Source of the DNA: Candidatus Peregrinibacteria bacterium CG_4_9_14_0_2_um_filter_53_11
Lineage (GTDB): Bacteria > Patescibacteriota > Gracilibacteria > UBA1369 > UM-FILTER-53-11
Assembly (NCBI GenBank): GCA_002788775.1
Contig: PFRX01000028.1
Location: forward strand, 18,959-82,958
Reading direction: 5' to 3'
Length of the DNA stretch: 64,000 bases
The notes beneath the pieces were generated by a model that was not told the DNA's origin, made no database searches, and worked only from the letters and a program-made list of their open reading frames with translations. The position numbers and the translations under genes are program-made. This document shows, piece by piece, positions 2,394 through 62,152 of the stretch (the first letter of the stretch is position 1; each line of letters begins with the position of its first letter).

Positions 2394-2399
2394 TATACT
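2394..2399 (+). promoter_or_regulatory. -10-like box TATACT, 7 nt upstream of the ATG at 2407
   Basis: gagTATACTctgaataATG. No Shine-Dalgarno sequence. Same geometry as several other unit-leading genes in the window. Confidence 0.4.
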
Positions 2400-2406
2400 C
2401 TGAATA

Positions 2407-3006
2407 ATGAGTGCACTAAGAAAAGGATCAACCATCCTACTGCTTGTTTTGAGTCTGTCGGGATGCTTCGGTGGGGGTGATTCGGCTGAGACGCCGGCAC
2501 CCGATGGCTACACCTTTTTTGAGAATGAGGAGTTCCAGATCGCACTCCCCACTGAGTGGGAGATACTCGACCCCGGAATGCTTTCCAGCTCCGTCGAGCC
2601 GACAACGGTCCTTGTGGCCCGAAGCAATCTCCGCGATCCTATCTTCACGGCAAACATCGTAATCCTGAAAAATCCCCTTGACCCCTCACCGGAGGGCCAG
2701 GCTCAGATTTCAGCTCGAGATTACGCCGGGGCCCTGCGATCAAAGCTCAAGGACACGCTCAGCAACTATCGCGAACTCACCGCCGAGGAGGTAACGGTTC
2801 CCGTTGGAGACACTCAGGTGCCGACGCTGTTTACTCAAGTTGAGGGGCGGCCTGCAAGTGAGACTGACATAAAAAACTACACCCACCTCAGCGTCGTTGT
2901 GGGCGATTACGCCTACATTGTTGTCGGAGCGGCACGAGCCGATGCCCCGGTTGAGGGAACGCTCGACAAGATCCAGTCTGCAGTCCGATCACTCAAGATT
3001 AACTAG
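2407..3006 (+). CDS. Lipoprotein, function unknown
   Basis: Signal peptide with lipobox LSLSGC. 199-aa soluble domain with no motif I recognise. Confidence 0.6.
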   Translation: MSALRKGSTILLLVLSLSGCFGGGDSAETPAPDGYTFFENEEFQIALPTEWEILDPGMLSSSVEPTTVLVARSNLRDPIFTANIVILKNPLDPSPEGQAQISARDYAGALRSKLKDTLSNYRELTAEEVTVPVGDTQVPTLFTQVEGRPASETDIKNYTHLSVVVGDYAYIVVGAARADAPVEGTLDKIQSAVRSLKIN

Positions 3007-3007
3007 G

Positions 3008-3062
3008 CCAGCCAAAAATCTCGCGGGAGCTGTCCGCGAGCCGAGACTAGGCTGGTATTTTT
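3008..3062. terminator. Compound hairpin between the convergent lipoprotein gene and tRNA-Lys
   Basis: Inner stem CTCGCGG (3020-3026) / CCGCGAG (3034-3040). Outer stem CCAGCC (3008-3013) / GGCTGG (3050-3055), followed by TATTTTT. Confidence 0.45.
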
Positions 3063-3962: not shown

Positions 3963-4292
3963 ATGTATACTACTTCAGTTGCGCTCTCTTTACTCTGGAT
4001 GCTCCTTCATGGAATCTTTGGTGTTCTCGTCTTGGCGGGCCTCGTTAGTGCCATCATCTGGATGGTTCGCTTTGCAAAGAAGGAGATGCTCGTGAAGATT
4101 ATGCGCTGGGCCCTTGCGGTTGGACTCATTGGAATGGTCCTCATGGCGGTACTCATCAGCTTCTGGGGGTGGGGACTTGGAGGTGGTAGCGGCTTTCACT
4201 CTCGCATGATGTGGGGCGGTGATGGATTTGGCGTAATGGATAATAAGACCCTTCAGCAGATGCAGGACGTCATGAATAACCAGAATAACTAA
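3963..4292 (+). CDS. Small integral membrane protein (3 predicted TM helices, Gly/Trp-rich tail)
   Basis: Hydrophobic segments from MYTTSVALSLLWMLLHGIFGVLVLAGLV onward. The start could instead be 3909, as in the track. Confidence 0.5.
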   Translation: MYTTSVALSLLWMLLHGIFGVLVLAGLVSAIIWMVRFAKKEMLVKIMRWALAVGLIGMVLMAVLISFWGWGLGGGSGFHSRMMWGGDGFGVMDNKTLQQMQDVMNNQNN

Positions 4293-4300
4293 CTCGCGCC

Positions 4301-5032
4301 ATGAAAACTATAAAAAAAGGATCATTTTCCCTCAGGAATGTAAATCTGTGGATGATCAGCACGCTCCTTCTGGGAGGCATTGTTGTCGGCTATACCGCCG
4401 GTGGGCTTACTCCGACACCTTGGACGAGTGGAGCTAGTGTGGTAGAGGCAACTCCGAGTGAGGCACCACAAAGGCAGATTCAGATTCAACCCGTTACCGA
4501 GGAAGATAATGTTCGGGGCAGCACAAACCCAATCATAACACTAGTTGAGTACTCCGACTTTGAGTGCCCCTACTGCAAGAGCTTTCACGAGACGATGAAG
4601 TCGATTATTGCAGACTACGGTGACTCGGTTCAGTGGGTCTACCGCGACCTGCCCATTGACTCTATCCACTCAAAAGCACGAACTGAGGCCGAGGCTGCGG
4701 AGTGCGCCGGTAAGCAAGGAAAGTTCTGGGAGATGGCTGATGCTATCTTCGCCGTAACACCGTCCAACGACGGCCTCGATCTGGCACTCCTACCCGAGCT
4801 TGCACGGGAAATCGGCGTTGATATGGATGAGTATTCTCAGTGTGTTGAAGAGCGCCAGACGCAGCAGCGTGTTGAGGATAATATCCGTGACGCCGCTCAA
4901 GCGGGAGCCACCGGAACACCGTTTAATGTGGTAATGGCAGAGGGAGAGCTCATTCCTGCTGCCGGGGCCCTATCAAAGGCTCAACTGGTTCAGTTTATCG
5001 AGGGAGTTCTCAGCCGAGCAGAAGCTCAGTAG
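4301..5032 (+). CDS. DsbA-family thiol:disulfide oxidoreductase, membrane anchored
   Basis: N-terminal TM helix. Thioredoxin-fold CxxC motif FECPYCKSF. DsbA-like tail GATGTPFNVV. Confidence 0.8.
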   Translation: MKTIKKGSFSLRNVNLWMISTLLLGGIVVGYTAGGLTPTPWTSGASVVEATPSEAPQRQIQIQPVTEEDNVRGSTNPIITLVEYSDFECPYCKSFHETMKSIIADYGDSVQWVYRDLPIDSIHSKARTEAEAAECAGKQGKFWEMADAIFAVTPSNDGLDLALLPELAREIGVDMDEYSQCVEERQTQQRVEDNIRDAAQAGATGTPFNVVMAEGELIPAAGALSKAQLVQFIEGVLSRAEAQ

Positions 5033-5100: not shown

Positions 5101-5170
5101 ATGAATAATTTATGAAAAATACCTGCGCAAAATCTTGCGCGTGTACACTCACATGCCGTAAGCTGGGCTT

Positions 5171-6283
5171 ATGCGCGTAGGAGTCGACACACAGGCACTA
5201 AATGGGGCCTTTACAGGCCACCGAATCTACCTCGACGGCCTTATGAAAGGTTTCGAAGAGCTATATAAACTAAACACCCGCGAGCTCAATCTGAACGAAC
5301 AACGAGAGGGGGCCAATGGTAACCACCAGCTTATTCGCCTAAACCTCGTCTCGCACGAGCTGCGGACGGCTCGGCGTATTCTGCATGACCAGATTCAGCT
5401 TCCCTGGGCGGCTTGGCGCAGCAAACTCGACCTGCTCTTCGTTCCGGCCTTTTCTGTCCCACTCCTCTACCCCGGGAAGATTGTCGCAACCGTCCACGAT
5501 CTAACCGCGCTGGACTATCCTGAGAACTTCCCCGCCGTCTCGCGCTTCTACTGGACGCGTCTGGTCCCCTACTCATTGAGACGTGCCGATCGCCTTATAG
5601 CAATCTCCCAGTATACAAAAGACTGGGTCGTGGAGCGGCTCGGAATTGATCCTGAAAAGATAGATGTCGTTCACTCCGCCTGCGATCAACGGTATTTCCG
5701 CACCGTCTCTTCCCAGGAACAGAAGGAAGCCTGCACGCGCAACAACCTCCCTGAAGAGTTTGTTATGATGGTGGGAACGATTGAGAAAAAACGCAATCAT
5801 GAGACTTTGATCAGGGCATATAGCCAGCTCAAGGACGCCCCACCTCTCCTCCTCGTCGGTAAGAAGGCCCACGCCTGGCCCGCACTGGAGGAGCTGATCC
5901 ATGAACTGAAACTTGAAGACCGTCTACTCGTGCGTAGCGAGATCAGTTCCAAGGATCTCCCCGCTCTTTATCAGAGAGCAGCACTGACCGTCGTCCCCTC
6001 TCTCTCGGAGGGTTTTGGCCTTCCTGTCTTGGAGTCGATGGCCAGCGGCACTCCCGTTGTCGTTGCAAAGAGCACGGCTCTCCCAGAGATTGCCGGCTCT
6101 GCCGCCCTCTTCTTCGATCCACACGCTCCTGAGGAGTTGGCAGACCAGATGGCGAAGCTCCTTCACGACTCAGCACTTCGCGAGAAGTTGAGCCAGCTGG
6201 GGAAAACCCGTGCAACAGAGTTCACCTGGCTTAGAACAGCTCAACAGACCTCTGCCGTCTTCAGCTCCATTACCACCATATAA
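5171..6283 (+). CDS. GT4-family glycosyltransferase
   Basis: C-terminal GT-B signature PSLSEGFGLPVLESMASGTPVVV (E-x7-E) and typical length. Confidence 0.8.
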   Translation: MRVGVDTQALNGAFTGHRIYLDGLMKGFEELYKLNTRELNLNEQREGANGNHQLIRLNLVSHELRTARRILHDQIQLPWAAWRSKLDLLFVPAFSVPLLYPGKIVATVHDLTALDYPENFPAVSRFYWTRLVPYSLRRADRLIAISQYTKDWVVERLGIDPEKIDVVHSACDQRYFRTVSSQEQKEACTRNNLPEEFVMMVGTIEKKRNHETLIRAYSQLKDAPPLLLVGKKAHAWPALEELIHELKLEDRLLVRSEISSKDLPALYQRAALTVVPSLSEGFGLPVLESMASGTPVVVAKSTALPEIAGSAALFFDPHAPEELADQMAKLLHDSALREKLSQLGKTRATEFTWLRTAQQTSAVFSSITTI

Positions 6284-6293
6284 TCCCAACACC

Positions 6294-7610
6294 ATGAAAA
6301 TTAAAACAATCTACACCTGTGGGAGCTGCGCCTATCAAGTATCAAAATGGGTTGGGCGCTGCCCGTCCTGTGAGGAGTGGAACAGCTTTTCCGAGGAGGA
6401 GGTGAAGAAAGAGTCGGCGCAGAGCAAGAAGGTAGCCTCACATGCGCGAACGCCTCAGGCCTATGAGACGCTCCTCAATGAGGCTGCTCGTGAGTTCAGG
6501 ATGCCTCTGGGAATGGGCGAGGTGGACCGCGTCCTGGGTGGCGGAATCGTCCCCTCCTCGCTCACACTTCTAACGGGAGAGCCCGGCATTGGTAAGTCCA
6601 CTCTAACTCTCCAGATTGCCGACAAACTTTGCTCCGGCGGGAAGCGCGTCTTGTACATATCCGGAGAAGAAGCCGAACGGCAGATCGCCATGCGTGGCAA
6701 GCGCCTGGGCCTTGAGCTTAAGGGCCTAAATCTGCTGTGCGAGTCTGATCTTGAAACGGCTTTAGCCACGGCCGAAGGCGTTAAGGCGGAGTTCATCATC
6801 GTCGACTCGATTCAGGTTATGCACAGCGGAAGTGCCCCTGGAAATGCGGGTGCCGTATCACAGGTTCGCTTTTGTACTGAAGTAATAATGGAGTGGGCAA
6901 AACGACGAGGCACGAGCGCCCTCCTCATCGGACACGTTACTAAAGATGGGACTCTCGCTGGACCACGCGTCCTGGAGCACCTTGTAGACACGGTCATCTA
7001 CCTTGAGGGAAGTCGTCAGGGCGAACTCCGCATCCTCCGAAGTGTGAAAAATCGCTTTGGGAGCACAAGCGAGGTCGGCCTCTTTGAGATGAGTCAGGAG
7101 GGCCTCCTAGAGGTTACCGATCCCGCCGCCCTCTTCGTCCAGGAGCACGACTCGAAAAGTTTTGGCACCGCGCTTACAATGACCTACGAGGGAAGCCGGC
7201 CCCTAATCCTCGAGATTCAGGCACTCACGAATACGACCGTTTTTGGCTACCCCCAGCGAACTACGAGTGGCTTTGATGGCAAGCGGCTCCAGCTCCTCGT
7301 TGCTGTTCTTGAAAAATATATGGGTGCCAAGTTGGGAAATCAGGATATCTACATCAACGTCGTCTCGGGCTACAAGCTCACCGACCCCCGTGCTGATCTG
7401 GCTCTCTGTCTTGCGATCCTCTCGTCCTACTACAAAAAGCCTCTTCCCCAGCAGACGGTCTTCATCGGGGAGGTTGGCCTTGCCGGAGAGGTAAGAAGTG
7501 CTACGCGTGCTGCAGCCAAGTACCAGAAACACCTAGCCCAGCAGGGCTTCAAACTCTTCGAGACGCCAAAAGCTATGCGCGCCCTCTCCAAGCTGCTCTT
7601 CTCTGCCTAG
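6294..7610 (+). CDS. radA: DNA repair protein RadA
   Basis: Zn-finger CGSCAYQVSKWVGRCPSC, Walker A GEPGIGKST, KNRFG motif and a Lon-like C-terminal domain. Start placed at MKIKTIY (6294). Confidence 0.95.
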   Translation: MKIKTIYTCGSCAYQVSKWVGRCPSCEEWNSFSEEEVKKESAQSKKVASHARTPQAYETLLNEAAREFRMPLGMGEVDRVLGGGIVPSSLTLLTGEPGIGKSTLTLQIADKLCSGGKRVLYISGEEAERQIAMRGKRLGLELKGLNLLCESDLETALATAEGVKAEFIIVDSIQVMHSGSAPGNAGAVSQVRFCTEVIMEWAKRRGTSALLIGHVTKDGTLAGPRVLEHLVDTVIYLEGSRQGELRILRSVKNRFGSTSEVGLFEMSQEGLLEVTDPAALFVQEHDSKSFGTALTMTYEGSRPLILEIQALTNTTVFGYPQRTTSGFDGKRLQLLVAVLEKYMGAKLGNQDIYINVVSGYKLTDPRADLALCLAILSSYYKKPLPQQTVFIGEVGLAGEVRSATRAAAKYQKHLAQQGFKLFETPKAMRALSKLLFSA

Positions 7611-11548: not shown

Positions 11549-11577
11549 TTGACAACACCCCGAAACTACCTTACTAT
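11549..11577 (+). promoter_or_regulatory. sigma70-type promoter TTGACA-17-TACTAT driving the aro leader
   Basis: Consensus -35 at 11549-11554, exact 17-nt spacer, -10 at 11572-11577. The ATG of the leader ORF begins 7 nt after the -10 box. Confidence 0.65.
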
Positions 11578-11584
11578 GCCCACG

Positions 11585-11638
11585 ATGAAGCGCACTCCTG
11601 CAACCAACTGGTTTTATTTTTTTACCCTGACGGCTTAG
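11585..11638 (+). CDS. Aromatic-amino-acid leader peptide MKRTPATNWFYFFTLTA (17 aa)
   Basis: ATG AAG CGC ACT CCT GCA ACC AAC TGG TTT TAT TTT TTT ACC CTG ACG GCT TAG. Five consecutive aromatic codons (W-F-Y-F-F) sit directly upstream of the shikimate operon. Confidence 0.6.
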   Translation: MKRTPATNWFYFFTLTA

Positions 11639-11699: not shown

Positions 11700-11838
11700 A
11701 TTTATTACCTTTTTACTATGAACACACCGGGTATCAGATCATCGTTTAGACTGGCAGGCGCTCCTACGAGCACAGCCTGCCTTTGGCGAAGCAACGCTAC
11801 GAACTACCTTTATCGATAAGACCACTAACCCCACACCC

Positions 11839-12861
11839 ATGATTATCGTAATGAAACGTCATGCGCCCGAGGAGACGATCCAGCGCGTCATAGACGAGAT
11901 TGAAAAAGCAGGAATGCAGCCGGTTCCCCTCATCGGTACCGAGCGCACGGTCATAGCCATTATCGGAGATGAGCGGGGGCTCGACGAAGCTCATTTCAGA
12001 AGTTTACCGCATGTCTCAACCGTTATGCCGGTCCTACGACCGTACAAGCTCGCGAGCCGTGAGACAAAGCACGAATCGACGATCATACGCGTTGGAAATG
12101 TGGAGATCGGAGGCCAGACCATTGCCATGATGGCCGGCCCCTGCTCCGTGGAAAATGAAGACCAGATTGAAGAGTCAACGCGCGGTGTAAAGGCTCTCGG
12201 AGCTAACATTCTCCGCGGCGGCGCCTTCAAGCCAAGAACCGGCCCTTACGCCTTCCAGGGACTGGGTCGTGAGGGTATCGACCTTCTCTCGGCCGCCGGC
12301 AAGCGCCACGACATGGTGACCGTCTCAGAAATTATGGATGTTCGTGATGTTGAGTTCACCGCCTCAAAAATTGATATCCTACAGATTGGTGCACGCAACA
12401 TGCAGAACTTCGACCTTCTTAAGGAAGTGGGCCGTCTACAAAATCCCATCCTTCTAAAGCGCGGCATGTCGGCGACCATTAAAGAGTTCCTCCTCGCGGC
12501 CGAGTACATCCTCGCTCAGGGAAATCCCAACGTCATTCTCTGTGAACGTGGCATCCGCACCTTTGAAGACGAGACGCGCAACACACTCTGCATCGCGACC
12601 GTGCCTATCGTAAAAGAGCTCTCCCACCTTCCGATTATCGTAGACCCCAGCCATGGAACGGGCAAGGTCCAGCTGATCCCACCGATGGCAAAGGCTGCCA
12701 TTGCAGCCGGCGCTGATGGTATTATGGTGGAGGTCCATCCGAATCCGGATGTCGCCCTGTCAGATGCCGATCAGGCCCTCGACCTCGAGCGCTTTGGCGC
12801 TCTGATGAATGAGCTCGGCCCGATCACTCATGCGGTCAACCGCACCCTTCCCAATGACTAA
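11839..12861 (+). CDS. aroF: 3-deoxy-7-phosphoheptulonate (DAHP) synthase, type I-beta, with N-terminal ferredoxin/ACT-like regulatory domain
   Basis: Collinear, from my recollection of the Thermotoga-type enzyme: MIIVMKR...[12 protein letters not shown] regulatory domain, then [40 protein letters not shown]. Confidence 0.9.
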
Positions 12862-17475: not shown

Positions 17476-18927
17476 TTAGGTGAGGGCGGCCTGGCAGGCC
17501 TCATTAATAAGCTGCTCAGCCTCGGCAGAGCGAACTACTTTATCGGGAGCATTTGTTGCCTCTCCGTCGATAGACTGCTGTGAAGAATCCTTGAAGAAGG
17601 CACGGCCGGGAATCAGTGAGCGACCAACATGTCTGAGGCGATCCTTCATAACCTCGGCGGCTCCTTTTCGTGAGAAGAGAAGTTTAGCGGCGATATTCTC
17701 TGTGGCAAGGCGCTTCATCAGCTTCCAGGCACTGCCCTTTTCATAGGCCTCAGCAACATCTGCGGGCGTAATACCTGTCGTCGCCTCTAAAGCACCTTTA
17801 GCTGCCAACAGACCAAAGCCGACACCGAATGAGCCGGCAAGAATCGCACCAGTTGCTCCGGTATGCACTGCGATGTCGAGCATCCGTCCCTTTCCTCCAC
17901 CCTTCATTCTATCCAGAAGGTTCCGCTTTGTGGGATCAACCCTTTTTACCACACGCTCGAGTAGATCACGACGCTGCTTTTCGAGCTCTGGACTGCGACG
18001 ATCCATCTCCGCCACACTCGCGAAAGCGACGGGCAGATGGGGAGAGAGCAGGCCCAGATCACGCTGGGAACAGAGGCGATCGAAGAGCTCACGTGACGAG
18101 GCATCACTAAAGGCTCCACCACCCGGCTTATACTCAGCGGTTGGCTTGATTCCCAAAACCTCAGCAGCACGGGGATTCTGCTTCATTTTAGCAAAAACCT
18201 TGCGACGGTAGAGGTCGCTCCCCTTTGTGATGCGAGACTGAAGGTCTGCCATAGAGGTCACAGGGCGGTTTGGGGGGAACTCGGCTCTGAGGGCCTGAGG
18301 AAAGGCGTTATCTTCCCAAATGGCCTCACCGAGAAGCTGAATAAGCAGAGGTGTCATATTCGACATGCTCTCGGGGTTTCGCGAAGCGTCACGTATCTGC
18401 TCAAGGGTAAGCCCAAGCTCATCAAAGATACCGTCGAGAGTTGTACTCCCCTCAGGTGTCTGAGTCCGCTTGAGAAGGGTCTGAAGGGGCCCCTTTACGC
18501 GGGAGCGGAGCGAGTCGACAGGTGTTAGGGACTGGCCCGGACGACCTCCTGAAGGTGGCAAAGAAGAGAGGCTTACACCAGGTGCAGCTGCTCCGGCACG
18601 TGGCGATACGGGTGCGGGTGAGCCAGGAGCCTGTGGAGAGGCGGGCTGGGCCAGCCCGAGCTGAGGCGTCGCAGGCTTCAGCTGTGGATTTTTTCCCGGC
18701 TCGGTAATCTCAAACTGATAGTAAAACTGTGCCCCTTCGGGCATCTCAACTGTGGTCTCAAAGAGGCCATTATTATCGGTGAGCTGCTGATCCTGCCAGG
18801 ACTGGCCGGGGAGCGCAAAACGAATGCGAACCGTGGAGCCCGGGAGGTGAGGGGCACGGTAGATAAAAGGCACGGTTATCTGACCGGGAGCTTCATTAAA
18901 CTCAATGGGGTGTGCACGTTGGGACAT
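17476..18927 (-). CDS. Hypothetical protein (483 aa): N-terminal beta-sandwich-like module, Pro-rich linker, C-terminal Gly-rich hydrophobic segment
   Basis: Long ORF in an operon context. A -10-like TATAAA sits 7 nt upstream of the ATG. I recognise no catalytic motif. Confidence 0.6.
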   Translation of the reverse strand: MSQRAHPIEFNEAPGQITVPFIYRAPHLPGSTVRIRFALPGQSWQDQQLTDNNGLFETTVEMPEGAQFYYQFEITEPGKNPQLKPATPQLGLAQPASPQAPGSPAPVSPRAGAAAPGVSLSSLPPSGGRPGQSLTPVDSLRSRVKGPLQTLLKRTQTPEGSTTLDGIFDELGLTLEQIRDASRNPESMSNMTPLLIQLLGEAIWEDNAFPQALRAEFPPNRPVTSMADLQSRITKGSDLYRRKVFAKMKQNPRAAEVLGIKPTAEYKPGGGAFSDASSRELFDRLCSQRDLGLLSPHLPVAFASVAEMDRRSPELEKQRRDLLERVVKRVDPTKRNLLDRMKGGGKGRMLDIAVHTGATGAILAGSFGVGFGLLAAKGALEATTGITPADVAEAYEKGSAWKLMKRLATENIAAKLLFSRKGAAEVMKDRLRHVGRSLIPGRAFFKDSSQQSIDGEATNAPDKVVRSAEAEQLINEACQAALT

Positions 18928-18974
18928 AGATTTGTTTATATTTCTTTTTATTCTACCATTTTTAGCCTATTTCA

Positions 18975-20959: not shown

Positions 20960-21163
20960 CTATCGGTACTTCTTCTTTTCCCGAAGGTCGCGGTAGTGCT
21001 CACGCATCATGGCCGCATTGCGGACATAGCGCTTCGTTGAAGGTTTTTTGAAGTACATACGCTCCTTTGCAATGGAGAGGATGCGCTTTCCCTGAACCTT
21101 CTTCTGAAAGCGAGAGATGAGCTTCTCGTTGGACTCTTTGGGGTCTCGGTAGAGAACGATCAT
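20960..21163 (-). CDS. rpsU: 30S ribosomal protein S21
   Basis: 67-aa highly basic protein with an S21-like pattern (ESNEKLISRFQKKV...KPSTKRYVRNAAMMRE). Confidence 0.85.
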   Translation of the reverse strand: MIVLYRDPKESNEKLISRFQKKVQGKRILSIAKERMYFKKPSTKRYVRNAAMMREHYRDLREKKKYR

Positions 21164-21175
21164 GAGGTAAATAAG

Positions 21176-23110
<1,935 letters not shown>

Positions 23111-25743: not shown

Positions 25744-25772
25744 TAGTCAACGTCGTTGAAGAGCGTTATAGT
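25744..25772 (+). promoter_or_regulatory. Promoter TAGTCA-17-TATAGT, -10 box 6 nt upstream of the ATG at 25779
   Basis: -10 at 25767-25772, then tgcacc and the ATG. No Shine-Dalgarno sequence. Confidence 0.5.
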
Positions 25773-25778
25773 TGCACC

Positions 25779-27473
25779 ATGAAAAAACTAATCGCTCTCG
25801 CAACCGGCCTTCTCTTCTTTGTTAACGGCGCCCTGACGACACTGGCACAGTTCGAAGACGTCACGAGTACGACTCTCTACCGCGAAGATATTCAGTACCT
25901 CTGGGACAGCGGCATCGTAACCGGCACGCTCTTCGACCCCCTTCACTCGATCTCGCGTGAAGATTATGCCGAGTGGATCTTACGCAATGCGGGATTTTCA
26001 CCTCTGGACTACACTCCTCAGACTGAAGAGCGCTTCGATGATGTCTCCATGAAGCTCGATCCTCAGGCCCCTTTCGTCTACCGCCTTGTTGATCTTGGTA
26101 TTATTACGATCGGTGAGTCTAAAAAATTCCGTCCAAATCGGGCCCTCTATAAGGCGGAAGCCCTCGACTGGCTCTTCCAGCTTGAGGGGATACCCGTTCC
26201 AAAAATCTTTGAGGAAGACAGCTTTCAGGCCACAGATCTTAAAACCAAGGATAAACTGGCACCGATAGTCAATAAAAGTATCGAGCTCGGCCTGCTCGAG
26301 CCGGGCAAGGTTTGGATAAAACGTCGCCTTACTCGCGCACAAGCGGCTCACTTCCTCCACCAGGTAAAGTCACGGACGGGCGTCCTTACAATTACAGTGG
26401 CCCCGACAGTGAATAGTGAGCTCATTAGCGAGCCACAGTTCAATACCTTCGCCGCTGCCTGGAACAGCATAACTCGCGACTACCTCCACAAAGATAAGGT
26501 AAATAAAAAAGACCTCATCTACGCGGCCATCGAAGGCATGGTGCGTGAGCTCGGTGACAAGCACACGACTTTTGAGCGGCCCGGCGACCCCAGTGTCGCG
26601 GACTCACTGAGCGGACAGGTCGAGGGCATCGGCGTCATCATCCAAGATCAGGAGGGTGAGATTGTCGTCGTCACTCCTCTGGAAGGCTCACCGGCCTTTA
26701 AGGCCGGCCTCAAGCCACACGACGTCTTCACGAACATCGACGGGAAGCCTCTTGATGGGCTCAGCCTCACCGACGTTGCCCGGCTGATTAAAGGTGAGCG
26801 AGGCACATCTGTAAAAATTACCGTTAAGCGTGGGGCGCTCCTAAAGAGTTTCACTATAAAGCGTGAGGTGATCATCGTTCACTCCGTTACTGAACGCCGA
26901 ACCGACGACAACTACAGTATTATAAAGATTAACAACTTTGCTCAAAATACCAACGAGGAGTTCGCCAAGATCGTAGCGGGCATGGAGACAAATGCTCCAA
27001 AAGGTATCGTCCTCGACCTACGCAACAACCCGGGAGGGTTCCTCACGACAGCCGTCGACCTCGCGAGCTACTTCGTCCTTAACGGAGACCTTGTAACAAC
27101 CATTCGCTACCCGAATCGCAACGAGCCCCTCGCCGCAAATGGCGCTGCACAACTCCACGACACAAAGGTAGTCGTCTTGATTAACGCGGGCAGCGCCTCG
27201 GCCTCTGAGATTCTTGCCGGCGCTCTTCGCGACTACAATCTTGCGAAAATTGTGGGGGAGACGAGTTACGGAAAGGGAACGGTTCAGGAGCTCGATCAGT
27301 ACTACGACGGCTCAACACTCAAGTTAACGATTGCAGAGTGGCTGACTCCAAATGGAGTGAGCATCGACGGCAAGGGAATCGTTCCTGACGTCCTTGTCCC
27401 CCTCAGTGATGAAGAGCGATTTGACGACTCAGCAGACCGACAGCTCCAAGAGGCCCTCAACCAGCTCCGCTAA
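25779..27473 (+). CDS. S41 carboxy-terminal processing peptidase with N-terminal SLH-like repeats and a PDZ domain
   Basis: Signal peptide. SLH-like FEDVTSTTLYREDIQYLWDSGIVTG. PDZ (GSPAFKAGLKPHDVFTNIDG). Catalytic GSASASEILAGAL (Ser) and SYGKGTVQ (Lys). Confidence 0.85.
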   Translation: MKKLIALATGLLFFVNGALTTLAQFEDVTSTTLYREDIQYLWDSGIVTGTLFDPLHSISREDYAEWILRNAGFSPLDYTPQTEERFDDVSMKLDPQAPFVYRLVDLGIITIGESKKFRPNRALYKAEALDWLFQLEGIPVPKIFEEDSFQATDLKTKDKLAPIVNKSIELGLLEPGKVWIKRRLTRAQAAHFLHQVKSRTGVLTITVAPTVNSELISEPQFNTFAAAWNSITRDYLHKDKVNKKDLIYAAIEGMVRELGDKHTTFERPGDPSVADSLSGQVEGIGVIIQDQEGEIVVVTPLEGSPAFKAGLKPHDVFTNIDGKPLDGLSLTDVARLIKGERGTSVKITVKRGALLKSFTIKREVIIVHSVTERRTDDNYSIIKINNFAQNTNEEFAKIVAGMETNAPKGIVLDLRNNPGGFLTTAVDLASYFVLNGDLVTTIRYPNRNEPLAANGAAQLHDTKVVVLINAGSASASEILAGALRDYNLAKIVGETSYGKGTVQELDQYYDGSTLKLTIAEWLTPNGVSIDGKGIVPDVLVPLSDEERFDDSADRQLQEALNQLR

Positions 27474-35526: not shown

Positions 35527-36663
35527 ATGGGTAATACCTTTGGTCTCTTTTTTCGGGTAACAACATTCGGCGAGTCACACGGAGCCGGCCTTGGCTGTGT
35601 TATCGACGGCTGCCCTCCCAACCTCCCGATCGATCTTGAGCTTCTTCAGCATGAGATGGATCGCCGGCGGCCCGGCCAGTCGGATATTACGACGCCCCGA
35701 AACGAGGGAGACAAGGTGAAGGTACTCTCGGGCATTTTTGAGGGAGTAACCCTCGGAACGCCGATCGCCCTTATGATCGAGAATACCAACCAGCAGTCAA
35801 AGGACTACAGTAAGCTCAAAGACGTCTTCAGACCCGGCCACGCCGACTACACCTGGCAGATGAAGTATGGCATCAGAGATTACCGTGGCGGTGGCCGCTC
35901 ATCGGGCCGCGAGACCTCAGCACGCGTTATGGCCGGTGCCATTGCAAAACAGATTCTGGGCCAGCTGGGGATCAGCGTGATCGCCTTTAGCAGGCAGATC
36001 GGGGAGATTCGAGCTGAAAAAATAGACCTCAGCACCATTGAGAAGAATCTAGTTCGGACGGCAGACCCCGACAAGGCCCCCCTTATGGAGGAGCTTGTCC
36101 TCAAGGCAAAAGAGGAGGGTGACTCGGTTGGTGGGATCGTCGAGCTCCTGATCCAAAACGCGCCCGTGGGTCTGGGTGAGCCGGTTTTCGACAAGATCAA
36201 TGCCGACCTGGCCAAGGCGATCGTCTCTATTCCAACGGTAAAGGGGATTGAGTTCGGCGCGGGATTCGACGTGGCGACAAAAAAGGGCTCGGAAAATAAC
36301 GACACATTTGTTGCCGATAAGGAGAGCGAGGCGGGCATCGGACTGGCTAAAAATGATGCGGGCGGGATCGCCGGAGGCATTACAACCGGCCAGGATATCG
36401 TCATGCGCATAGCGGTCAAGCCCCCTTCCAGCATAAACAAAGAGCAGAAGACGGTGGATGCCCATGGAAACCCGATCACGCTCGAAGTGGGCGGGCGACA
36501 CGACCCCTGCATAATCCCCCGCTTTATACCTGTTGCGGAGAGCATGGCGGCGATCGTCATTCTAGACCACCTCCTCCGCTATCGGGCTCTCTGTCCAGAT
36601 AAAGTCCCCTTCCCCGCGGTGTCTGCTACGTCCCCCAAGGCCGCGCGATCTTCCCGAGCATGA
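35527..36663 (+). CDS. aroC: Chorismate synthase
   Basis: FRVTTFGESHG, RRPGQS, RPGHAD, GGGRSSGRET, GGRHDPC. The last ~20 codons are read out of frame through the livF-like relic. Confidence 0.93.
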   Translation: MGNTFGLFFRVTTFGESHGAGLGCVIDGCPPNLPIDLELLQHEMDRRRPGQSDITTPRNEGDKVKVLSGIFEGVTLGTPIALMIENTNQQSKDYSKLKDVFRPGHADYTWQMKYGIRDYRGGGRSSGRETSARVMAGAIAKQILGQLGISVIAFSRQIGEIRAEKIDLSTIEKNLVRTADPDKAPLMEELVLKAKEEGDSVGGIVELLIQNAPVGLGEPVFDKINADLAKAIVSIPTVKGIEFGAGFDVATKKGSENNDTFVADKESEAGIGLAKNDAGGIAGGITTGQDIVMRIAVKPPSSINKEQKTVDAHGNPITLEVGGRHDPCIIPRFIPVAESMAAIVILDHLLRYRALCPDKVPFPAVSATSPKAARSSRA

Positions 36664-37590: not shown

Positions 37591-37596
37591 TATACT
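37591..37596 (+). promoter_or_regulatory. -10-like TATACT, 6 nt upstream of the gshA ATG
   Basis: cggTATACTtgaggcATG. The -35 region is weak. Confidence 0.4.
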
Positions 37597-37602
37597 TGAG
37601 GC

Positions 37603-38883
37603 ATGCTTCCCTACCTTGTCGAACAGTTCAAAAAACATGACTCTAAAATTCAGGAGTGGTTTTCCTACTACGAGAGCCAGATCGGCTCCGAGCCTATCTA
37701 TGCCTCGGTGGACTTGAGGAATGCCGGATACAAGATCGCTCCGGTAGACACGAACATCTTCCCCGCAGGCTTTAATAACCTCTGCCCCAGCTTCCAGCGC
37801 GAGGCGACTCGGCTTTTCAAGGAGGCTCTTAGCGCGCCCGGAATCGACCGAAAGCTGCTCGGAGGCCGTGGCGAGATAAAAAAGATCCTGATTTTGGCCG
37901 AGGAACACACCCGGAATCTCTTCTACTTCGACCATCTGCACGCACTCAAATCTATTGTTGAGGCGGCGGGCATAGAGGTTGTCGTGGGGAGCTTATCCAC
38001 GGATCTACCCGCTGAAGAAAACTTTTTCGAGAACGCTTCGGGCAAGAAGGTGACGATCGCTCGTGCTGCCGAGAAGAACGGCAAACTCCAGACCTCGACC
38101 TTCCTCCCCGACCTCATCCTGATCAACAACGACTTCTCAGCCGGCCTCCCCGAGGTCATTAGACGGGTCAAACAGCCCATGGTTCCCACTCCGCATATTG
38201 GCTGGCACAGAAGGAAAAAGAGCGACCACTTCACCCACTACCGGAAGTTCATCGAAAACTTTGCGGAGCACATCGAGATCGACCCTTGGCTCATGCTTGC
38301 AGAGTTCAGTATGGTTGACGAGCTGAATCTCAGTGAGAGCTCGAGCACCGAGCGGTTGGCCGCAGAAGTTGACCGCCTCCTTGCCATCATTCGAGAGAAG
38401 CACCACGCTCACGGAGTTTCAGATGAGCCCTTCGTCTTTGTCAAAAACAATGCGGGAACCTACGGTATGGCCATCATGACCGCCCACTCGGGCGATGAGT
38501 TTCTTCAGCTGAATAAGAAGCAGCGCAAAAACATGAAAACGGGCAAAGGAAGTCAGTCCGTAACGAGCCTCATTATTCAAGAGGGGCTCGTTACCGTCGA
38601 CCGCTTTCAAGGACTCGTCGCCGAGCCGGTCGTCTACCTTGTAAACAACCAAGCCTGTGGCGGCTTCTTCCGCCTTCACGACTCCGTTGATGAGCGCGGG
38701 AACCTGAATCAGCCGGGCATGCGTTTCAGTAAGCTCTGCTTCCACGAGCTAACAGGCTATGAAAACGTCTACGAGAAGGCCTGTGACATGGACTGCCTCA
38801 GCATGGTCTACAAGTATACTGCTCGCATTGCCTCACTGGCAGCCGGTTGTGAAATTAACTCTATCCCACTTCATGAGATCTAA
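37603..38883 (+). CDS. gshA: Glutamate--cysteine ligase, GshA (Acidithiobacillus-type, Pfam GshA / TIGR02049-like)
   Basis: The N-terminal block IYASVDLRNAGYKIAPVDTNIFPAGFNNL matches my recollection of this family. Its 3' end overlaps the start of gshB, a coupling that supports the call. Confidence 0.7.
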   Translation: MLPYLVEQFKKHDSKIQEWFSYYESQIGSEPIYASVDLRNAGYKIAPVDTNIFPAGFNNLCPSFQREATRLFKEALSAPGIDRKLLGGRGEIKKILILAEEHTRNLFYFDHLHALKSIVEAAGIEVVVGSLSTDLPAEENFFENASGKKVTIARAAEKNGKLQTSTFLPDLILINNDFSAGLPEVIRRVKQPMVPTPHIGWHRRKKSDHFTHYRKFIENFAEHIEIDPWLMLAEFSMVDELNLSESSSTERLAAEVDRLLAIIREKHHAHGVSDEPFVFVKNNAGTYGMAIMTAHSGDEFLQLNKKQRKNMKTGKGSQSVTSLIIQEGLVTVDRFQGLVAEPVVYLVNNQACGGFFRLHDSVDERGNLNQPGMRFSKLCFHELTGYENVYEKACDMDCLSMVYKYTARIASLAAGCEINSIPLHEI

Positions 38884-42515: not shown

Positions 42516-44166
<1,651 letters not shown>

Positions 44167-44172
44167 CACTCC

Positions 44173-44751
44173 ATGATCGCCTATCTCGACGGAACCATTA
44201 TCGACAAGCACGAGCGCACGCTGATTATCGGCGTGGGCGGGGTGGGCTATCTGGTACACGTCTCACGCGCCATTCACGACCTCCACAACAAAGGTCAGGC
44301 CGTTGAACTCTTCATACATACCAACGTCAGAGAGGACGACCTCTCGCTCTACGGCTTCCCCGAGATGCGCCAGCTCGAGTTCTTTAAGCTCCTCATCGGG
44401 GTTTCAGGAGTTGGGCCGAGGAGCGCACTTGAGATTATGAACACGCCCCTTGAGCGCCTCCGCTCGGCGATCGCCCGCAAAGAGATCTTAGTCCTCACAA
44501 AGATACAGGGGATCGGGAAGAAGACGGCGGAGCGAATCTGTGTAGACCTTGAAAACAAGATGAGCCAGGAGGAGCTGACCGCACGCGCGGAGGAGGCTGA
44601 GCCCGATGAGCTAAGAGTGGGCGAGGACATAATCCAGGCCCTCATCTCTCTGGGCTACAAACGGCACCACGTCATGCACGGCCTGAAGGACATTCCCGAG
44701 ACGATCAGCAAAGAAGAAGATGTGATAAAATACTTCCTTCAACACGCCTAA
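44173..44751 (+). CDS. ruvA: Holliday junction DNA helicase subunit RuvA
   Basis: MIAYLDGTI..., tandem HhH motifs (LIGVSGVGPRSALEI, LTKIQGIGKKTAERI). Confidence 0.9.
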   Translation: MIAYLDGTIIDKHERTLIIGVGGVGYLVHVSRAIHDLHNKGQAVELFIHTNVREDDLSLYGFPEMRQLEFFKLLIGVSGVGPRSALEIMNTPLERLRSAIARKEILVLTKIQGIGKKTAERICVDLENKMSQEELTARAEEAEPDELRVGEDIIQALISLGYKRHHVMHGLKDIPETISKEEDVIKYFLQHA

Positions 44752-46044: not shown

Positions 46045-46073
46045 TTGACATCCTCCCTCATGCCCTCTAACAT
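46045..46073 (+). promoter_or_regulatory. Promoter TTGACA-17-TAACAT, -10 box 9 nt upstream of the ATG at 46083
   Basis: Consensus -35 at 46045-46050 and -10 at 46068-46073. Confidence 0.55.
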
Positions 46074-46082
46074 CGTGTTATT

Positions 46083-47147
46083 ATGTTTACGACCCAAGAC
46101 GATACGCAAGCTGTGACTGCAATACCAGCAGTTAAGGAGCTTGTAAACAACTTGCTCATCCTCCTCTCCCCCAAAGAAAAACATATTATAGAAAATCGCT
46201 ACAGTCTGAATGGGCGGCCCCACTCAACGCTGGAGCGGATTGGCCAGGAGTTCGGCGTCACCCGGGAGCGCATTAGGCAGATCGAAAAAAATGCACTTAA
46301 GAAGCTCTCAAGAAACGTCGTCAACACAAAGCTCAACATCTTCAATCAGCTCGGCAATACGATCATACAAAAATACGAAGGACTCGTCCTCGAAGAAAGA
46401 ATCATCAGTGAGATACTAAGCCTCGTGAGCTCTCCCGAGACTGTTGACCGATCCTCAATTCGCCTCTCACTCGAGCTGGACAGCAATCTTGAGCGCGTTC
46501 CAAATACCATCAACTGCTATCCCTACTTCAAGCTAAAGACACTCGAGAAGAGTGAGATCAATCGTATCGCCAGCTGGGCCCTTAAGTATCTGACCAAGAA
46601 AAAAACTGTCGAGGCCCTCGATGCTCTGGTTGCAGCTTACTCAAAGGAGTTTGCAAAGAATATCAGCAAGCAGTTTATGAGCTCAGCCCTCTCCCTCGAT
46701 CGACGGCTGAAGCTCCTCAAAAAGGGCGTGGGACTCGCTTCATGGCGCTCGATTAATCCACGCACACTCCGTGACAAGATAACCTACATCCTCAAGGATC
46801 ATGGGAAGTCCCTTCACTACGTTGAAATTGCAAATCGCATTGCCGAGAGCAAGTTCGACAAGAAGATGATCAACGTACAGGCTGTTCACAACGAGCTGAT
46901 TCGCGATGAGACCTTCGTTCTTATCGGCAGAGGGATCTATGCGCTCCGTGCATGGGGATATGTTGATGGGACGGTCGCTGATGTCATTGCGGATATCCTC
47001 CGCACCAATGGTTCTCTCGAGCGCGACGCCATCATAGCTGAAGTACTGAAGCGACGGCAGGTTAAGCGGATCACGATCATTCTCAACCTTAAGAACAAGC
47101 CTATATTCGAGCGTGTGGGACGTAACGTCTACTCTCTCAAGGGTTAA
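46083..47147 (+). CDS. Sigma-70 region-4-like HTH protein with C-terminal HARE-HTH domain
   Basis: N-terminal LSPKEKHIIENRYSL...TLERIGQEFGVTRERIRQIEKNALKKL (region 4.2-like). C-terminal ILKDHGKSLHYVEIANRI...VHNELIRDETFVLIGRGIYALRAWGY (HARE-HTH, as in RpoE-delta). Confidence 0.6.
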   Translation: MFTTQDDTQAVTAIPAVKELVNNLLILLSPKEKHIIENRYSLNGRPHSTLERIGQEFGVTRERIRQIEKNALKKLSRNVVNTKLNIFNQLGNTIIQKYEGLVLEERIISEILSLVSSPETVDRSSIRLSLELDSNLERVPNTINCYPYFKLKTLEKSEINRIASWALKYLTKKKTVEALDALVAAYSKEFAKNISKQFMSSALSLDRRLKLLKKGVGLASWRSINPRTLRDKITYILKDHGKSLHYVEIANRIAESKFDKKMINVQAVHNELIRDETFVLIGRGIYALRAWGYVDGTVADVIADILRTNGSLERDAIIAEVLKRRQVKRITIILNLKNKPIFERVGRNVYSLKG

Positions 47148-61284: not shown

Positions 61285-61412
61285 ATGAGGGAGGATAAAA
61301 ATGTTCGTAACACACAATGTCCCGCCGGAAGGCGAGTGACATTAGTGGCATAATATATCACGAACTCGGCCCAAAGCCAGCAAAGCCAAAGGAAAACGGT
61401 GGCCTGACCAGG

Positions 61413-62114
61413 CTAATTATTGTCTGGGCGCGAGGGCTCGAATCTAATAATGCAGTTTAGGCAGATCTCCTCGGAATTGTCGTCACTGGGGCTCTCGGTC
61501 GGCTCTTCTACGGTCATCCCGGCCTCAGTAACCAGAGCGATGATCTCCTCCTTTGTGAAAAAGTTAAAAAGGCGGTTTGAGTTGACGCGCCTTTCGCCGC
61601 CACTTCTGAGGTACTTCTCGCCCCCGAGACGTTTTTTAACTCGGATAAAACCCCGAGCTCCCGGCCTGGCAACCCGCCGCACCTCAGCCAAAACCTCGGA
61701 CACCATCTCATCAGGCATATGAAGTAGAACGGAACGGAGACAGACAGCATCAAATGAGGCTTCCGCAAAGGGAAGGGCACGACCATTGGCCACGACAAAA
61801 CTCACATGAGGATGAGCGCGTCGAGCCTCCTCAATAAACTCGGGGACCGGATCAGCCCCGACAGCCCGGTGTCTCTGAGCAAAAAAAGCCGTATCCCTAC
61901 CCCCGGCACATCCCAGATCGAGCACAGTGCCGCCTTCGGGAAGACCCTTATCGAAAGCGCGGATCTCAGCCGGCTGGAGCCCCGCTATCTTAGAAACATA
62001 CTCGGCGGCATGAGCTCGATACCAAGCGAGGGTCTGGTCATGGGCGACCACAGGGTCAAGGCCCGCTGTCGGGGTCTCACCATCGGAATGGGATGTAGCT
62101 TCTGGCGGTCTCAT
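61413..62114 (-). CDS. Class I SAM-dependent methyltransferase
   Basis: Motif I VLDLGCAGGRD, with post-I and motif II spacing typical of Methyltransf_11/25. Confidence 0.8.
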   Translation of the reverse strand: MRPPEATSHSDGETPTAGLDPVVAHDQTLAWYRAHAAEYVSKIAGLQPAEIRAFDKGLPEGGTVLDLGCAGGRDTAFFAQRHRAVGADPVPEFIEEARRAHPHVSFVVANGRALPFAEASFDAVCLRSVLLHMPDEMVSEVLAEVRRVARPGARGFIRVKKRLGGEKYLRSGGERRVNSNRLFNFFTKEEIIALVTEAGMTVEEPTESPSDDNSEEICLNCIIRFEPSRPDNN

Positions 62115-62123
62115 AGGCGGGCT

Positions 62124-62152
62124 AATCTACGCCTTTTCGCTACGCCCGTCAA
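62124..62152 (-). promoter_or_regulatory. Promoter TTGACG-17-TAGATT (minus strand), -10 box 9 nt upstream of the ATG at 62114
   Basis: Plus-strand cgtcaa at 62147-62152 and aatcta at 62124-62129. Confidence 0.5.

What the first reader, a model, noticed from the sequence alone, without database searches (positions are those of the whole stretch)
2394..62152. Recurrent -10 box 6-9 nt upstream of ATG with no Shine-Dalgarno: widespread leaderless transcription units
At the first gene of many apparent transcription units, a TATAAT-like hexamer sits so close to the ATG that the predicted transcription start coincides with, or lies 0-3 nt before, the start codon.
- TATACT-7-ATG at 2407.
- TACTAT-7-ATG at 11585 (aro leader peptide).
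- TATAAA-7-ATG at 18927 (minus strand).
- TATAGT-6-ATG at 25779.
- TGcTATAGT-6-ATG at 33844.
- TATACT-7-ATG at 35527 (aroC).
- TATACT-6-ATG at 37603 (gshA).
- TAACAT-9-ATG at 46083.
- TAGATT-9-ATG at 62114 (minus strand).
- More weakly, TAAGCT-6-ATG at 5171.
Several of these have good -35 boxes at a 17-nt spacing. No GGAGG-like motif precedes these starts. Leaderless mRNAs are well established in Actinobacteria, Deinococcus-Thermus and archaea. This density within a single 64-kb window suggests it is a dominant initiation mode here. It also argues for the ATG starts I chose over the upstream TTG/GTG starts in the ORF track.
Basis: partly seen in the sequence, partly recalled or inferred. Interest (0 to 1): 0.6.

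Follow-up and report, generated by a model that had tools for sequence, protein, structure and literature searches.

The report
Leaderless genes in SD-less Peribacteria
In this uncultured groundwater bacterium, which does not use the usual Shine-Dalgarno ribosome-binding signal, about a quarter of genes have a promoter -10 box right against the start codon and so probably make leaderless mRNAs, while more genes carry a different TAAC-type signal at the same position.

Summary
All ten quoted sites are in the sequence as written. The pattern holds genome-wide. TANNNT lies 6-9 nt before the first ATG in 31% of operon-leading genes, against 12% background (p 2e-30). With the same pipeline E. coli gives 4% and a Deinococcus megaplasmid 19%. 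No Shine-Dalgarno signal exists, and the 16S anti-SD core is CCUCU.

The hexamer count mixes two signals at -15..-12.
- Motif A (gTAtAaT) covers about 25% of genes. It is a sigma-70 -10 box: TTG sits exactly 17 bp upstream in 30 of 170 sites, against about 3 expected. These are leaderless or near-leaderless units.
- Motif B (YTAACYY) covers about 39% of genes and has no -35 partner. It lies inside G-poor, unfolded leaders downstream of ordinary promoters, and before operon-internal genes.

Full promoters are bimodal: 6-11 nt or 21-70 nt from the ATG.

Leaderless units are therefore widespread, about 20-27% of units, as in Actinobacteria and Deinococcus. They are not the dominant mode. Seven of the ten sites score as A-type, two have full promoters with atypical hexamers, and one is ambiguous.

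Motif A appears in the window's family and in one other family that also has CCUCU. Motif B occurs across most of the order.

No RNA data exist, so transcription starts are inferred.

The parts
2394..2409 (+). TATACT (2394-2399), 7 nt, ATG 2407. A-type leaderless promoter. The hexamer lies in the palindrome AGTATACT, inside a 30-nt divergent intergenic region.
   Evidence: (P(A)=0.97), 89
2374..2399 (-). Divergent RimK-like gene starting at 2376 (minus). The same palindromic TATACT read on the minus strand lies 15 nt before its ATG, which would give a short leader of about 8-9 nt.
   Evidence: (P(A)=0.82), 88, 89
5159..5173 (+). TAAGCT (5159-5164), 6 nt, ATG 5171 (GT4 glycosyltransferase). Weak A-type site.
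   Evidence: P(A)=0.79
6279..6296 (+). TATAAT (6279-6284), 9 nt, ATG 6294 (RadA/Sms-like). The Zn ribbon begins at residue 7, which supports this ATG over the GTG at 6210.
   Evidence: (P(A)=0.76), 88, 89
11549..11587 (+). TTGACA (11549-11554), 17 bp, TACTAT (11572-11577), 7 nt, ATG 11585. Full promoter abutting a 17-codon ORF (MKRTPATNWFYFFTLTA).
   Evidence: the hexamer scores as B in the mixture, but the -35 box marks it as a promoter
11826..11841 (+). B-type element cTAACcc starting at -13 before ATG 11839 (DAHP synthase), inside a leader.
   Evidence: (P(B)=0.97), 89
18925..18960 (-). TATAAA (18935-18940), 7 nt, ATG 18927. Ambiguous: a better -10 (TAGAAT) lies 22 nt upstream of the ATG, and TAAAC at -13 resembles motif B.
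   Evidence: (P(A)=0.35, P(B)=0.17), 89
25767..25781 (+). TATAGT (25767-25772), 6 nt, ATG 25779 (S41 peptidase; the N-terminus MKKLIALATG looks like a signal peptide). A-type.
   Evidence: P(A)=0.92
33829..33846 (+). Extended -10 TGcTATAGT (33829-33837), 6 nt, ATG 33844. A-type, 34 nt after the end of gyrA. The upstream TTG at 33826 would lie outside the transcript.
   Evidence: (P(A)=0.94), 89
35514..35529 (+). TATACT (35514-35519), 7 nt, ATG 35527 (chorismate synthase). A-type. The N-terminus MGNTFG is conserved in 24 relatives.
   Evidence: P(A)=0.88
37591..37605 (+). TATACT (37591-37596), 6 nt, ATG 37603 (GshA-type glutamate-cysteine ligase). A-type. The N-terminus is conserved in orthologues, several of which have -10-like boxes 6-11 nt upstream.
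   Evidence: (P(A)=0.99), 84
46045..46085 (+). TTGACA (46045-46050), 17 bp, TAACAT (46068-46073), 9 nt, ATG 46083 (protein with sigma region 4). Full promoter whose hexamer also fits motif B.
   Evidence: (P(B)=0.94), 89
62112..62152 (-). TTGACG (62147-62152), 17 bp, TAGATT (62124-62129), 9 nt, ATG 62114 (methyltransferase). Full promoter with a leader of about 0-3 nt.
   Evidence: (P(A)=0.54), 89
4290..4303 (+). B-type element aaCTAACtc before the operon-internal ATG at 4301.
   Evidence: (P(B)=0.92), 89
35098..35112 (+). B-type element cCTAACga before the operon-internal ATG at 35110.
   Evidence: (P(B)=0.89), 89
44160..44175 (+). B-type element cTTAACTAACac before the operon-internal ATG at 44173.
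   Evidence: (P(B)=0.90), 89
20960..21178 (-). 67-aa bS21-like ORF (ATG 21163) preceded by the B-type element tCTAACtt (21175-21178).
   Evidence: (P(B)=0.96), 87, 88, 89
62236..62302 (+). Contrast case: an ordinary leadered unit. TTGACA-16-TAAAAT lies about 40 nt before ATG 62300.
   Evidence: (class lead_leadered)

Best explanation
The genome belongs to a Peribacteria/Peregrinibacteria (CPR) bacterium that does not use Shine-Dalgarno pairing. Its 16S anti-SD core reads CCUCU.

In about a quarter of its genes, a sigma-70-type -10 hexamer (consensus gTAtAaT) ends 6-9 nt, occasionally 10-11 nt, before the ATG. About 28% of these hexamers have a TTGnnn -35 box 16-18 bp upstream.

RNA polymerase would therefore start at the A of the ATG or at most a few nucleotides before it. 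The result is a leaderless or near-leaderless mRNA. Its 5'-terminal AUG would be bound directly by the ribosome with initiator tRNA, as in Actinobacteria and Deinococcus-Thermus.

This arrangement is found at operon-leading genes and also at a minority of genes packed behind a same-strand neighbour, where it acts as an internal promoter.

The remaining genes are leadered, or internal without a promoter of their own. Instead of an SD they carry a G-poor, unfolded stretch with a YTAACYY element at the same -15..-12 position.

What is shown: the motif statistics, the -35 coupling, the absence of SD, and the start-codon positions. What is inferred: the transcription start points and the mode of translation.
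For: - Enrichment of TANNNT at spacer 6-9, with working controls.
- A two-motif mixture beats a one-motif model by 156 log-likelihood units for about 36 extra parameters. Motif A has T .85, A .96, T .56, A .76, A/C, T .87, with lambda 0.25 (bootstrap 0.21-0.27).
- An orthogonal check not used in the fit: A sites have TTG at gaps 16/17/18 in 9/30/9 of 170, against about 2.8 per gap (p 7e-21). Operon-internal A sites alone give 9 against 1.8 (p 1e-4). B sites show at most a slight TTG excess, with no peak at 17 bp.
- The gene-call-free promoter-first peak appears only at the 17-bp gap.
- Full promoters are bimodal, with a trough at 12-20 nt.
- TATA-type hexamers are not enriched in the demonstrably leadered class.
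- Start codons next to the box are confirmed by orthologue N-termini for AroC and GshA, and by domain coordinates for RadA.
- SD 4-mers are at or below background. The anti-SD is CCUCU with a compensatory AGAG downstream, so it is not a sequencing error.
- The literature already lists Ca. Peribacter riflensis as SD-scarce and lacking CCUCC (PMC10783764).
Against: - No transcriptome exists for this organism: three run searches found no RNA run. No transcription start is mapped.
- The spacing is broader (6-9 nt) than the 6-7 nt reported for Deinococcus (PMC12340547) or the 6-8 nt for M. tuberculosis. About half of the A sites would give 1-4 nt leaders rather than none.
- A pyrimidine at -1 is equally or more frequent in leadered genes (88%), so it is not a start-site signature.
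- Genes with a strong distal promoter still have a near-ATG TANNNT in 22%, against 33% of genes without one (p 0.11, not significant).
- Gene starts come from a simple first-ATG rule.
Confidence: 0.7

Rival explanations
1. All near-ATG TA-rich hexamers are one mRNA-level, non-SD ribosome-binding signal, as in GeneMarkS-2 'group B' or Bacteroidota. Transcripts start further upstream and nothing is leaderless.
For: - A TAA/TAAC signal at -15..-12 is present in genes with a full promoter 21-70 nt upstream (44 against 14 expected) and before operon-internal genes.
- It is present in most sampled families of the order, including those with no A-type signal.
- The -1 pyrimidine and the G depletion do not depend on the hexamer.
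- GeneMarkS-2 argues that a motif shared by first and internal genes cannot be a promoter.
Against: - The A-type hexamers have a sharp -35 TTG peak at exactly 17 bp, and B-type sites show no such peak.
- TATA-type hexamers are absent from the leadered class.
- The two-motif model is far better than the one-motif model.
- Full promoters pile up at 6-11 nt with a trough at 12-20 nt.
Confidence: 0.15
2. The hexamers are real promoters, but the true start codons lie further downstream, so the mRNAs are ordinarily leadered.
For: Starts were assigned by a first-ATG rule, and no proteomic N-termini exist.
Against: - The AroC, GshA and RadA N-termini align with orthologues or Pfam profiles from the first residues.
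- Signal-peptide-like N-termini begin at 25779 and 33844.
- Later in-frame ATGs carry the motif at only 3.8%.
Confidence: 0.05
3. The pattern is chance, AT-rich intergenic composition, or an artefact of how ORFs are delimited (in-frame stop codons upstream).
For: Intergenic DNA gives 12% TANNNT per 4 positions. In-frame TAA shows a slight excess at -15, -12 and -18.
Against: - p values run from 1e-10 to 1e-30 against local backgrounds.
- The peak covers all three phases.
- E. coli, at the same GC content, gives no signal with the same pipeline.
Confidence: 0.02

Closest known systems
Leaderless transcription units of Deinococcus-Thermus and Actinobacteria (GeneMarkS-2 group C; Zheng et al. 2011, PMC3160421; Zhong et al. 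2025, PMC12340547)
   Same: A TANNNT -10 box lies a few nucleotides before the start codon in roughly a quarter to a third of genes. A -35 box is often missing. The box helps correct over-long annotated starts. The estimated share (20-27% of units) falls in the 25-50% range given for group C, or just below it.
   Different: - In those phyla the remaining and operon-internal genes use SD sites. Here no SD is used at all and the anti-SD is mutated.
- The spacing is broader (6-9 nt against 6-7 nt).
- The box also occurs before some tightly packed same-strand genes, which was 0% in the Deinococcus control.
- The lineage (CPR) is not one for which I found leaderless transcription described.
Non-SD initiation of Bacteroidota (GeneMarkS-2 group B; SD-blind ribosomes)
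   Same: A non-SD, G-poor, weakly folded region with a TAA-containing motif lies about 12-15 nt before the start of both first and internal genes (motif B here).
   Different: - The motif core is YTAAC rather than an A-run.
- No A preference is seen at -3.
- The anti-SD is mutated in this family rather than retained and masked.
- It coexists with a sizeable leaderless class.
'SD-scarce organisms lacking CCUCC' (class iv of PMC10783764, which lists Ca. Peribacter riflensis at 7% SD)
   Same: Same lineage, same altered anti-SD, same near-absence of SD pairing.
   Different: That work is thermodynamic. In the passages I read (the term matches and its class iv section) it does not say what replaces SD. 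Here the replacement is resolved into a leaderless promoter class and a TAAC-type leader element.

Membership tests
Bacterial leaderless transcription units (group C type) | A -10-like TANNNT hexamer enriched at a fixed short distance (about 6-8 nt) upstream of start codons | tested here: met
   31% against 12% in leading genes. Motif A starts at -15..-12, with spacer mode 6 and range 6-9. Positive and negative control genomes behave as expected.
Bacterial leaderless transcription units (group C type) | The hexamer is a promoter element and not an mRNA signal | tested here: met
   TTG lies 17 bp upstream in 30 of 170 A sites, against 2.8 expected, with no such peak at B sites. The gene-call-free peak appears only at the 17-bp gap.
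Bacterial leaderless transcription units (group C type) | Transcription start mapped at, or within a few nt of, the start codon | not testable with these tools
   No RNA run holds this organism.
Bacterial leaderless transcription units (group C type) | Start codon AUG (or GUG) with no SD in front | tested here: met
   Motif rate is 28% at ATG, 21% at the longest GTG and 7% at the longest TTG. SD 4-mers are at or below background.
Bacterial leaderless transcription units (group C type) | Leadered and operon-internal genes of the same genome use SD-type ribosome-binding sites | tested here: not met
   No SD occurs anywhere. Leadered and internal genes carry YTAACYY in G-poor leaders.
Non-SD RBS genomes (group B, Bacteroidota type) | One non-SD motif upstream of both first and internal genes, lying inside leaders | tested here: met
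   Motif B: P(B) is 0.57 in genes with a full promoter 21-70 nt upstream, 0.43 in internal genes and 0.34 in other leading genes. That it lies in the leader is inferred from predicted, not mapped, promoters.
Non-SD RBS genomes (group B, Bacteroidota type) | Leaderless transcription negligible | tested here: not met
   Lambda A is 0.25, with -35 coupling.
SD-scarce organisms lacking CCUCC (PMC10783764 class iv) | The 16S 3' tail lacks CCUCC and few genes can pair with it | tested here: met
   The tail reads GGAAUACCUCUUUUU, with a compensatory AGAG in the precursor hairpin. AGAG/GAGG/GGAG are not enriched.

The most novel reading that the evidence does not exclude
Within one order of CPR bacteria, a stepwise replacement of Shine-Dalgarno initiation can be read from genomes.
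- SD use is lost order-wide, even where CCUCC is kept. It is replaced by a YTAAC element in G-free, unfolded leaders whose reader is unknown.
- Then, in the window's family and in one other family, the anti-SD core itself mutates to CCUCU and leaderless promoters spread to 15-35% of genes, including genes inside former operons.

If this holds, the family is the first bacterial lineage described that runs entirely on leaderless plus a non-SD, non-Bacteroidota leader signal.
Probability: 0.4. Interest if true: 0.7.

Novelty: new member of a known kind. Interest (0 to 1): 0.5.

Why it matters
**Annotation.** Start-codon calls for Peribacteria and probably other CPR genomes made with SD-based models will be systematically off. 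Here the -10 box favours the first ATG over upstream TTG starts, 29% against 7%.

**Biology.** The result adds a CPR lineage to the short list of bacteria with a large leaderless gene set. This lineage shows no SD use. Its anti-SD core is mutated, and its bS21 is divergent and scores just below Pfam's cut-off. These features make it a natural test case for how bacterial ribosomes pick starts without SD pairing.

**The TAAC-type leader element.** Its reader is unknown and worth a dedicated study.

**Engineering.** Anyone trying to express genes in CPR bacteria, or CPR genes in model hosts, needs to know which signal a given gene relies on.

Tried and rejected
- **RNA evidence.** Three run searches found only DNA metagenomes from groundwater and aquifers and no RNA run: a 6-kb window stretch searched for any run type, then the aroC gene and the 16S searched for RNA runs. 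No read laying was possible.
- **One-motif EM.** It returned a blurred TA(A) motif for internal genes and a G-containing artefact for the leadered class. I replaced it with anchored counts and a two-motif mixture.
- **Pyrimidine at -1 as a start-site (YRY) signature.** Rejected, because it is as strong or stronger in leadered genes.
- **Stop codons of upstream genes as the source of the internal-gene signal.** This explains only part. 43 of about 190 TA anchors are upstream stop codons. TAG is not enriched and the peak is not phase-locked.
- **Pairing of UAAC with the 16S 3' tail.** No complementary GUUA is present in the tail. I did not pursue this further.
- **bS21 loss as an explanation.** Not supported. 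A divergent 67-aa bS21-like ORF exists, scoring 26.6 bits against a cut-off of 27.
- **Distal promoter against near-ATG box.** The test was not significant (22% against 33%, p 0.11).
- **Correction.** I first took the 874-aa protein at 31186-33810 for AlaRS. Pfam shows it is GyrA. This affects only the label of the query used to identify the lineage.
Full report
**What the window is**

The window is contig C25:18959-82958 of a 1.20-Mb, 99%-complete, 53% GC genome in 49 contigs. Relatives of its GyrA (31186-33810; Pfam) are Peribacteria/Peregrinibacteria MAGs of the CPR/Patescibacteria. DNA runs holding the sequence are groundwater and aquifer metagenomes. The 16S rRNA gene lies just left of the window. 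Its 3' tail reads ...GGAUGGAAUACCUCUUUUU, so the anti-SD core CCUCC is CCUCU.

**Observation**

All ten hexamer-spacer-ATG arrangements and the three -35 boxes at 17 bp are literally present. No gene finder was installed, so I wrote a codon-usage ORF caller. It gave 1050 genes and 91.6% coding. I took the first in-frame ATG as the start.

- TANNNT with its 3' end 6-9 nt from that ATG occurs in 31% of 534 operon-leading genes, against 12% in windows shifted upstream (p 2e-30).
- It occurs in 22% of 320 same-strand genes with gaps under 30 nt, against about 5% (p 8e-25).
- It occurs at 3.8% of later in-frame ATGs.

A test that needs no gene calls agrees. Among all TTGNNN-N17-TANNNT sites in the genome, an ATG follows at spacer 6-10 76 times against about 32 expected. 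Gaps of 12-16 and 19-22 bp show no such peak. 56 of the 76 ATGs are in-frame candidate starts of called genes.

The same pipeline was run on two control genomes.

| Genome | TANNNT at 6-9 | Background | SD 4-mers |
|---|---|---|---|
| E. coli K-12, 150 kb, same GC | 4% | 5% | 33-53% of genes |
| D. radiodurans MP1 (leaderless-rich), leading genes | 19% | 5% | 29-37% |
| D. radiodurans MP1, internal genes | 0% | 0% | (see above) |

The pipeline can therefore see both signals.

**No SD**

GGAG, GAGG, AGGA and AGAG are not enriched at -18..-5. They occur in 6% of genes, at or below background. G drops to 10-15% at -15..-8. The CCUCU change is not an error. In the precursor, the downstream complement co-varies: CCUCU...AGAG here, against CCUCC...GGAG in relatives. 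Ca. Peribacter riflensis is already listed as 'SD-scarce lacking CCUCC', with 7% SD genes (PMC10783764).

**Two signals, not one**

Several observations did not fit a pure promoter reading.
- The hexamer is also enriched before tightly packed same-strand genes.
- The top k-mers were TAAC, CTAAC and TTAAC rather than TATAAT.
- A pyrimidine at -1 (75%) did not depend on the hexamer.

I mapped full promoters (TTGnnn with at least 4 of 6 matches, a 16-18 bp gap, then TANNNT) upstream of leading genes. This gave a bimodal picture.
- 32 sit 6-11 nt from the ATG, about 23 above wrong-gap controls.
- There is a trough at 12-20 nt.
- 110 sit 21-70 nt away, about 86 above control.

The 101 genes of this 'leadered' class have strict TANNNT near the ATG in only 18%, close to the intergenic background, and no TATA enrichment. 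They do have TAA at -15..-12 in 44 cases against 14 expected. The TAA is followed by C or A and not by a T at hexamer position 6. They also have G at 6% and a pyrimidine at -1 in 88%.

A two-component mixture fitted to all 987 upstream regions beats a one-motif model by 156 log-likelihood units.

| Motif | Consensus | Share of genes (lambda) | Genes with P>0.7 |
|---|---|---|---|
| A | gTAtAaT | 0.25 (bootstrap 0.21-0.27) | 170 |
| B | YTAACYY | 0.39 | 252 |

Both motifs start at -15..-12.

The decisive orthogonal check uses the -35 box, which was not part of the fit.
- A sites carry TTG at gaps 16/17/18 in 9/30/9 cases, against about 2.8 per gap (p 7e-21).
- This holds within operon-internal A sites alone: 9 against 1.8 (p 1e-4).
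- B sites show no peak (5/5/7).

So A is a sigma-70 -10 box and B is not a promoter. B-type regions are almost unfolded: mean MFE is -2.4 kcal/mol for 40-nt windows, against about -7 inside genes.

**How common**

Mean P(A) by class:

| Class | Mean P(A) |
|---|---|
| Leading genes, overall | 0.27 |
| Leading genes, leadered control class | 0.12 |
| Internal genes | 0.19 |

Among promoters with a -35 box, leaderless ones are about 21%. That is the level known from Actinobacteria and Deinococcus. GeneMarkS-2 reports 25-50% of operons, and Zhong et al. report about one-third of D. radiodurans genes. It is not a dominant mode.

The spacer mode is 6 nt (51 sites), but 7-9 nt are common (22, 32 and 36 sites). 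E. coli polymerase starts best 7-8 bp after the box (PMC12641261). About half of the units would therefore have 1-4 nt leaders.

**The ten sites and the start codons**

- 2407, 25779, 33844, 35527 and 37603 are clear A-type sites (P(A) 0.88-0.99). 5171 (0.79) and 62114 (0.54, plus a -35 box) are weaker.
- 11585 and 46083 have perfect TTGACA-17 promoters, but their hexamers score as B.
- 18927 is ambiguous, with TAGAAT 22 nt upstream and TAAAC at -13.
- In the window, 9 of 51 genes are A-type and 16 are B-type.

Starts are backed by several lines of evidence.
- AroC begins MGNTFG in 24 relatives.
- GshA N-termini coincide in the orthologues where an ATG start could be placed.
- Pfam profiles begin within 9 residues of these ATGs for AroC and GshA, and the RadA Zn ribbon begins at residue 7.

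The motif is at the first ATG in 28.8% of genes whose longest ORF starts with TTG, but at that TTG in only 7.1% (p 6e-6). GTG starts keep it at 20.8%.

**Lineage**

I sampled 150-400 kb from each of 10 relatives and 60 kb from an eleventh. None uses SD. Lambda A by genome:

| Genome | Family | Anti-SD core | Lambda A |
|---|---|---|---|
| G000 (this genome) | f1 | CCUCU | 0.25 |
| G004 | f1 | further degenerate (AUCUCU) | 0.24 |
| G007 | f1 | CCUCU | 0.34 |
| G003 | f1 | CCUCU | 0.15 |
| G002 | f1 | CCUCC | 0.14 |
| G025 | f16 | CCUCU | 0.15 |
| G011, G027, G019, G013 | four other families | CCUCC | 0.00-0.05 |
| G028 | f19 | lost | 0.00 |
| E. coli | control | CCUCC | 0.00 |
| D. radiodurans MP1 | control | not examined | 0.07 |

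Motif B occurs across the order (lambda B 0.10-0.39), except in G028. It is absent from both controls. The link between an altered anti-SD and leaderless promoters is suggestive only: 12 genomes, not phylogenetically independent.

**Mechanism and limits**

The following are shown:
- two distinct sequence signals;
- the -35 coupling of motif A;
- the bimodal promoter distances;
- the absence of SD;
- the mutated anti-SD;
- the conserved N-termini.

The following are inferred:
- that transcription starts at or just before the AUG;
- that ribosomes initiate on the 5'-terminal AUG;
- that motif B acts on the mRNA, possibly through the four-domain bS1 that the genome encodes.

No RNA run holds this organism.

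In the held library I found no paper describing leaderless promoters or a TAAC-type element in CPR bacteria. That note is not independent evidence.

Noticed in passing
genome-wide; window examples 11826-11829, 4290-4293, 35098-35101, 44160-44163, 21175-21178(-): A second upstream signal, YTAACYY, starts at -15..-12 in about 39% of genes. It sits in G-poor (6% G), nearly unfolded leaders downstream of ordinary promoters, and before operon-internal genes. It has no -35 partner and no obvious complement in the 16S tail. It occurs in most sampled families of the order and is absent from E. coli and Deinococcus.
   Followed up: partly
outside the window, G000:C25:17241-18702 (minus), about 260 nt left of window base 1: The 16S anti-SD core is CCUCU, with a compensatory AGAG in the downstream precursor hairpin. 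Four of five family members with a readable 16S tail share an altered core. One other family (G025) also has CCUCU, and one (G028) has lost the core entirely.
   Followed up: partly
2377-2406: Only 30 nt separate the divergent starts at 2376 (minus; RimK-like ATP-grasp) and 2407 (plus). A palindromic AGTATACT provides a TATACT box on both strands. Genome-wide, 22 of 165 divergent pairs are at most 60 nt apart.
   Followed up: partly
11585-11638: The ATG next to the perfect TTGACA-17-TACTAT promoter opens a 17-codon ORF, MKRTPATNWFYFFTLTA, rich in aromatic residues. It lies 200 nt ahead of the DAHP synthase gene. It would be a leaderless leader peptide. The attenuator idea was not tested here.
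   Followed up: no
20960-21163 (minus): A 67-aa ORF with a borderline match to ribosomal protein bS21 (26.6 bits against a cut-off of 27). Similar weak hits occur in 11 further genomes of the 31 searched and above-cut-off hits in two more. bS21 is therefore divergent rather than absent in this lineage.
   Followed up: partly
genome-wide (leading genes): Promoter-to-ATG distances avoid 12-20 nt. Leaders too short to hold the -15..-12 element but longer than about 4 nt are rare. This fits two discrete initiation modes.
   Followed up: partly
genome-wide (same-strand neighbours): Intercistronic gaps are bimodal, with peaks at -4/+3 nt and at 8-11 nt. In the second mode the upstream stop codon is TAA far more often than TAG (84% against 16%) and falls on the -15..-12 position of the next gene.
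   Followed up: partly
36603-36900 and 29999-31075: My caller placed weak genes at 36798 and 30050. Other first-reader notes discuss these regions (a livF-like fossil and an acidic orphan protein). I did not examine them.
   Followed up: no
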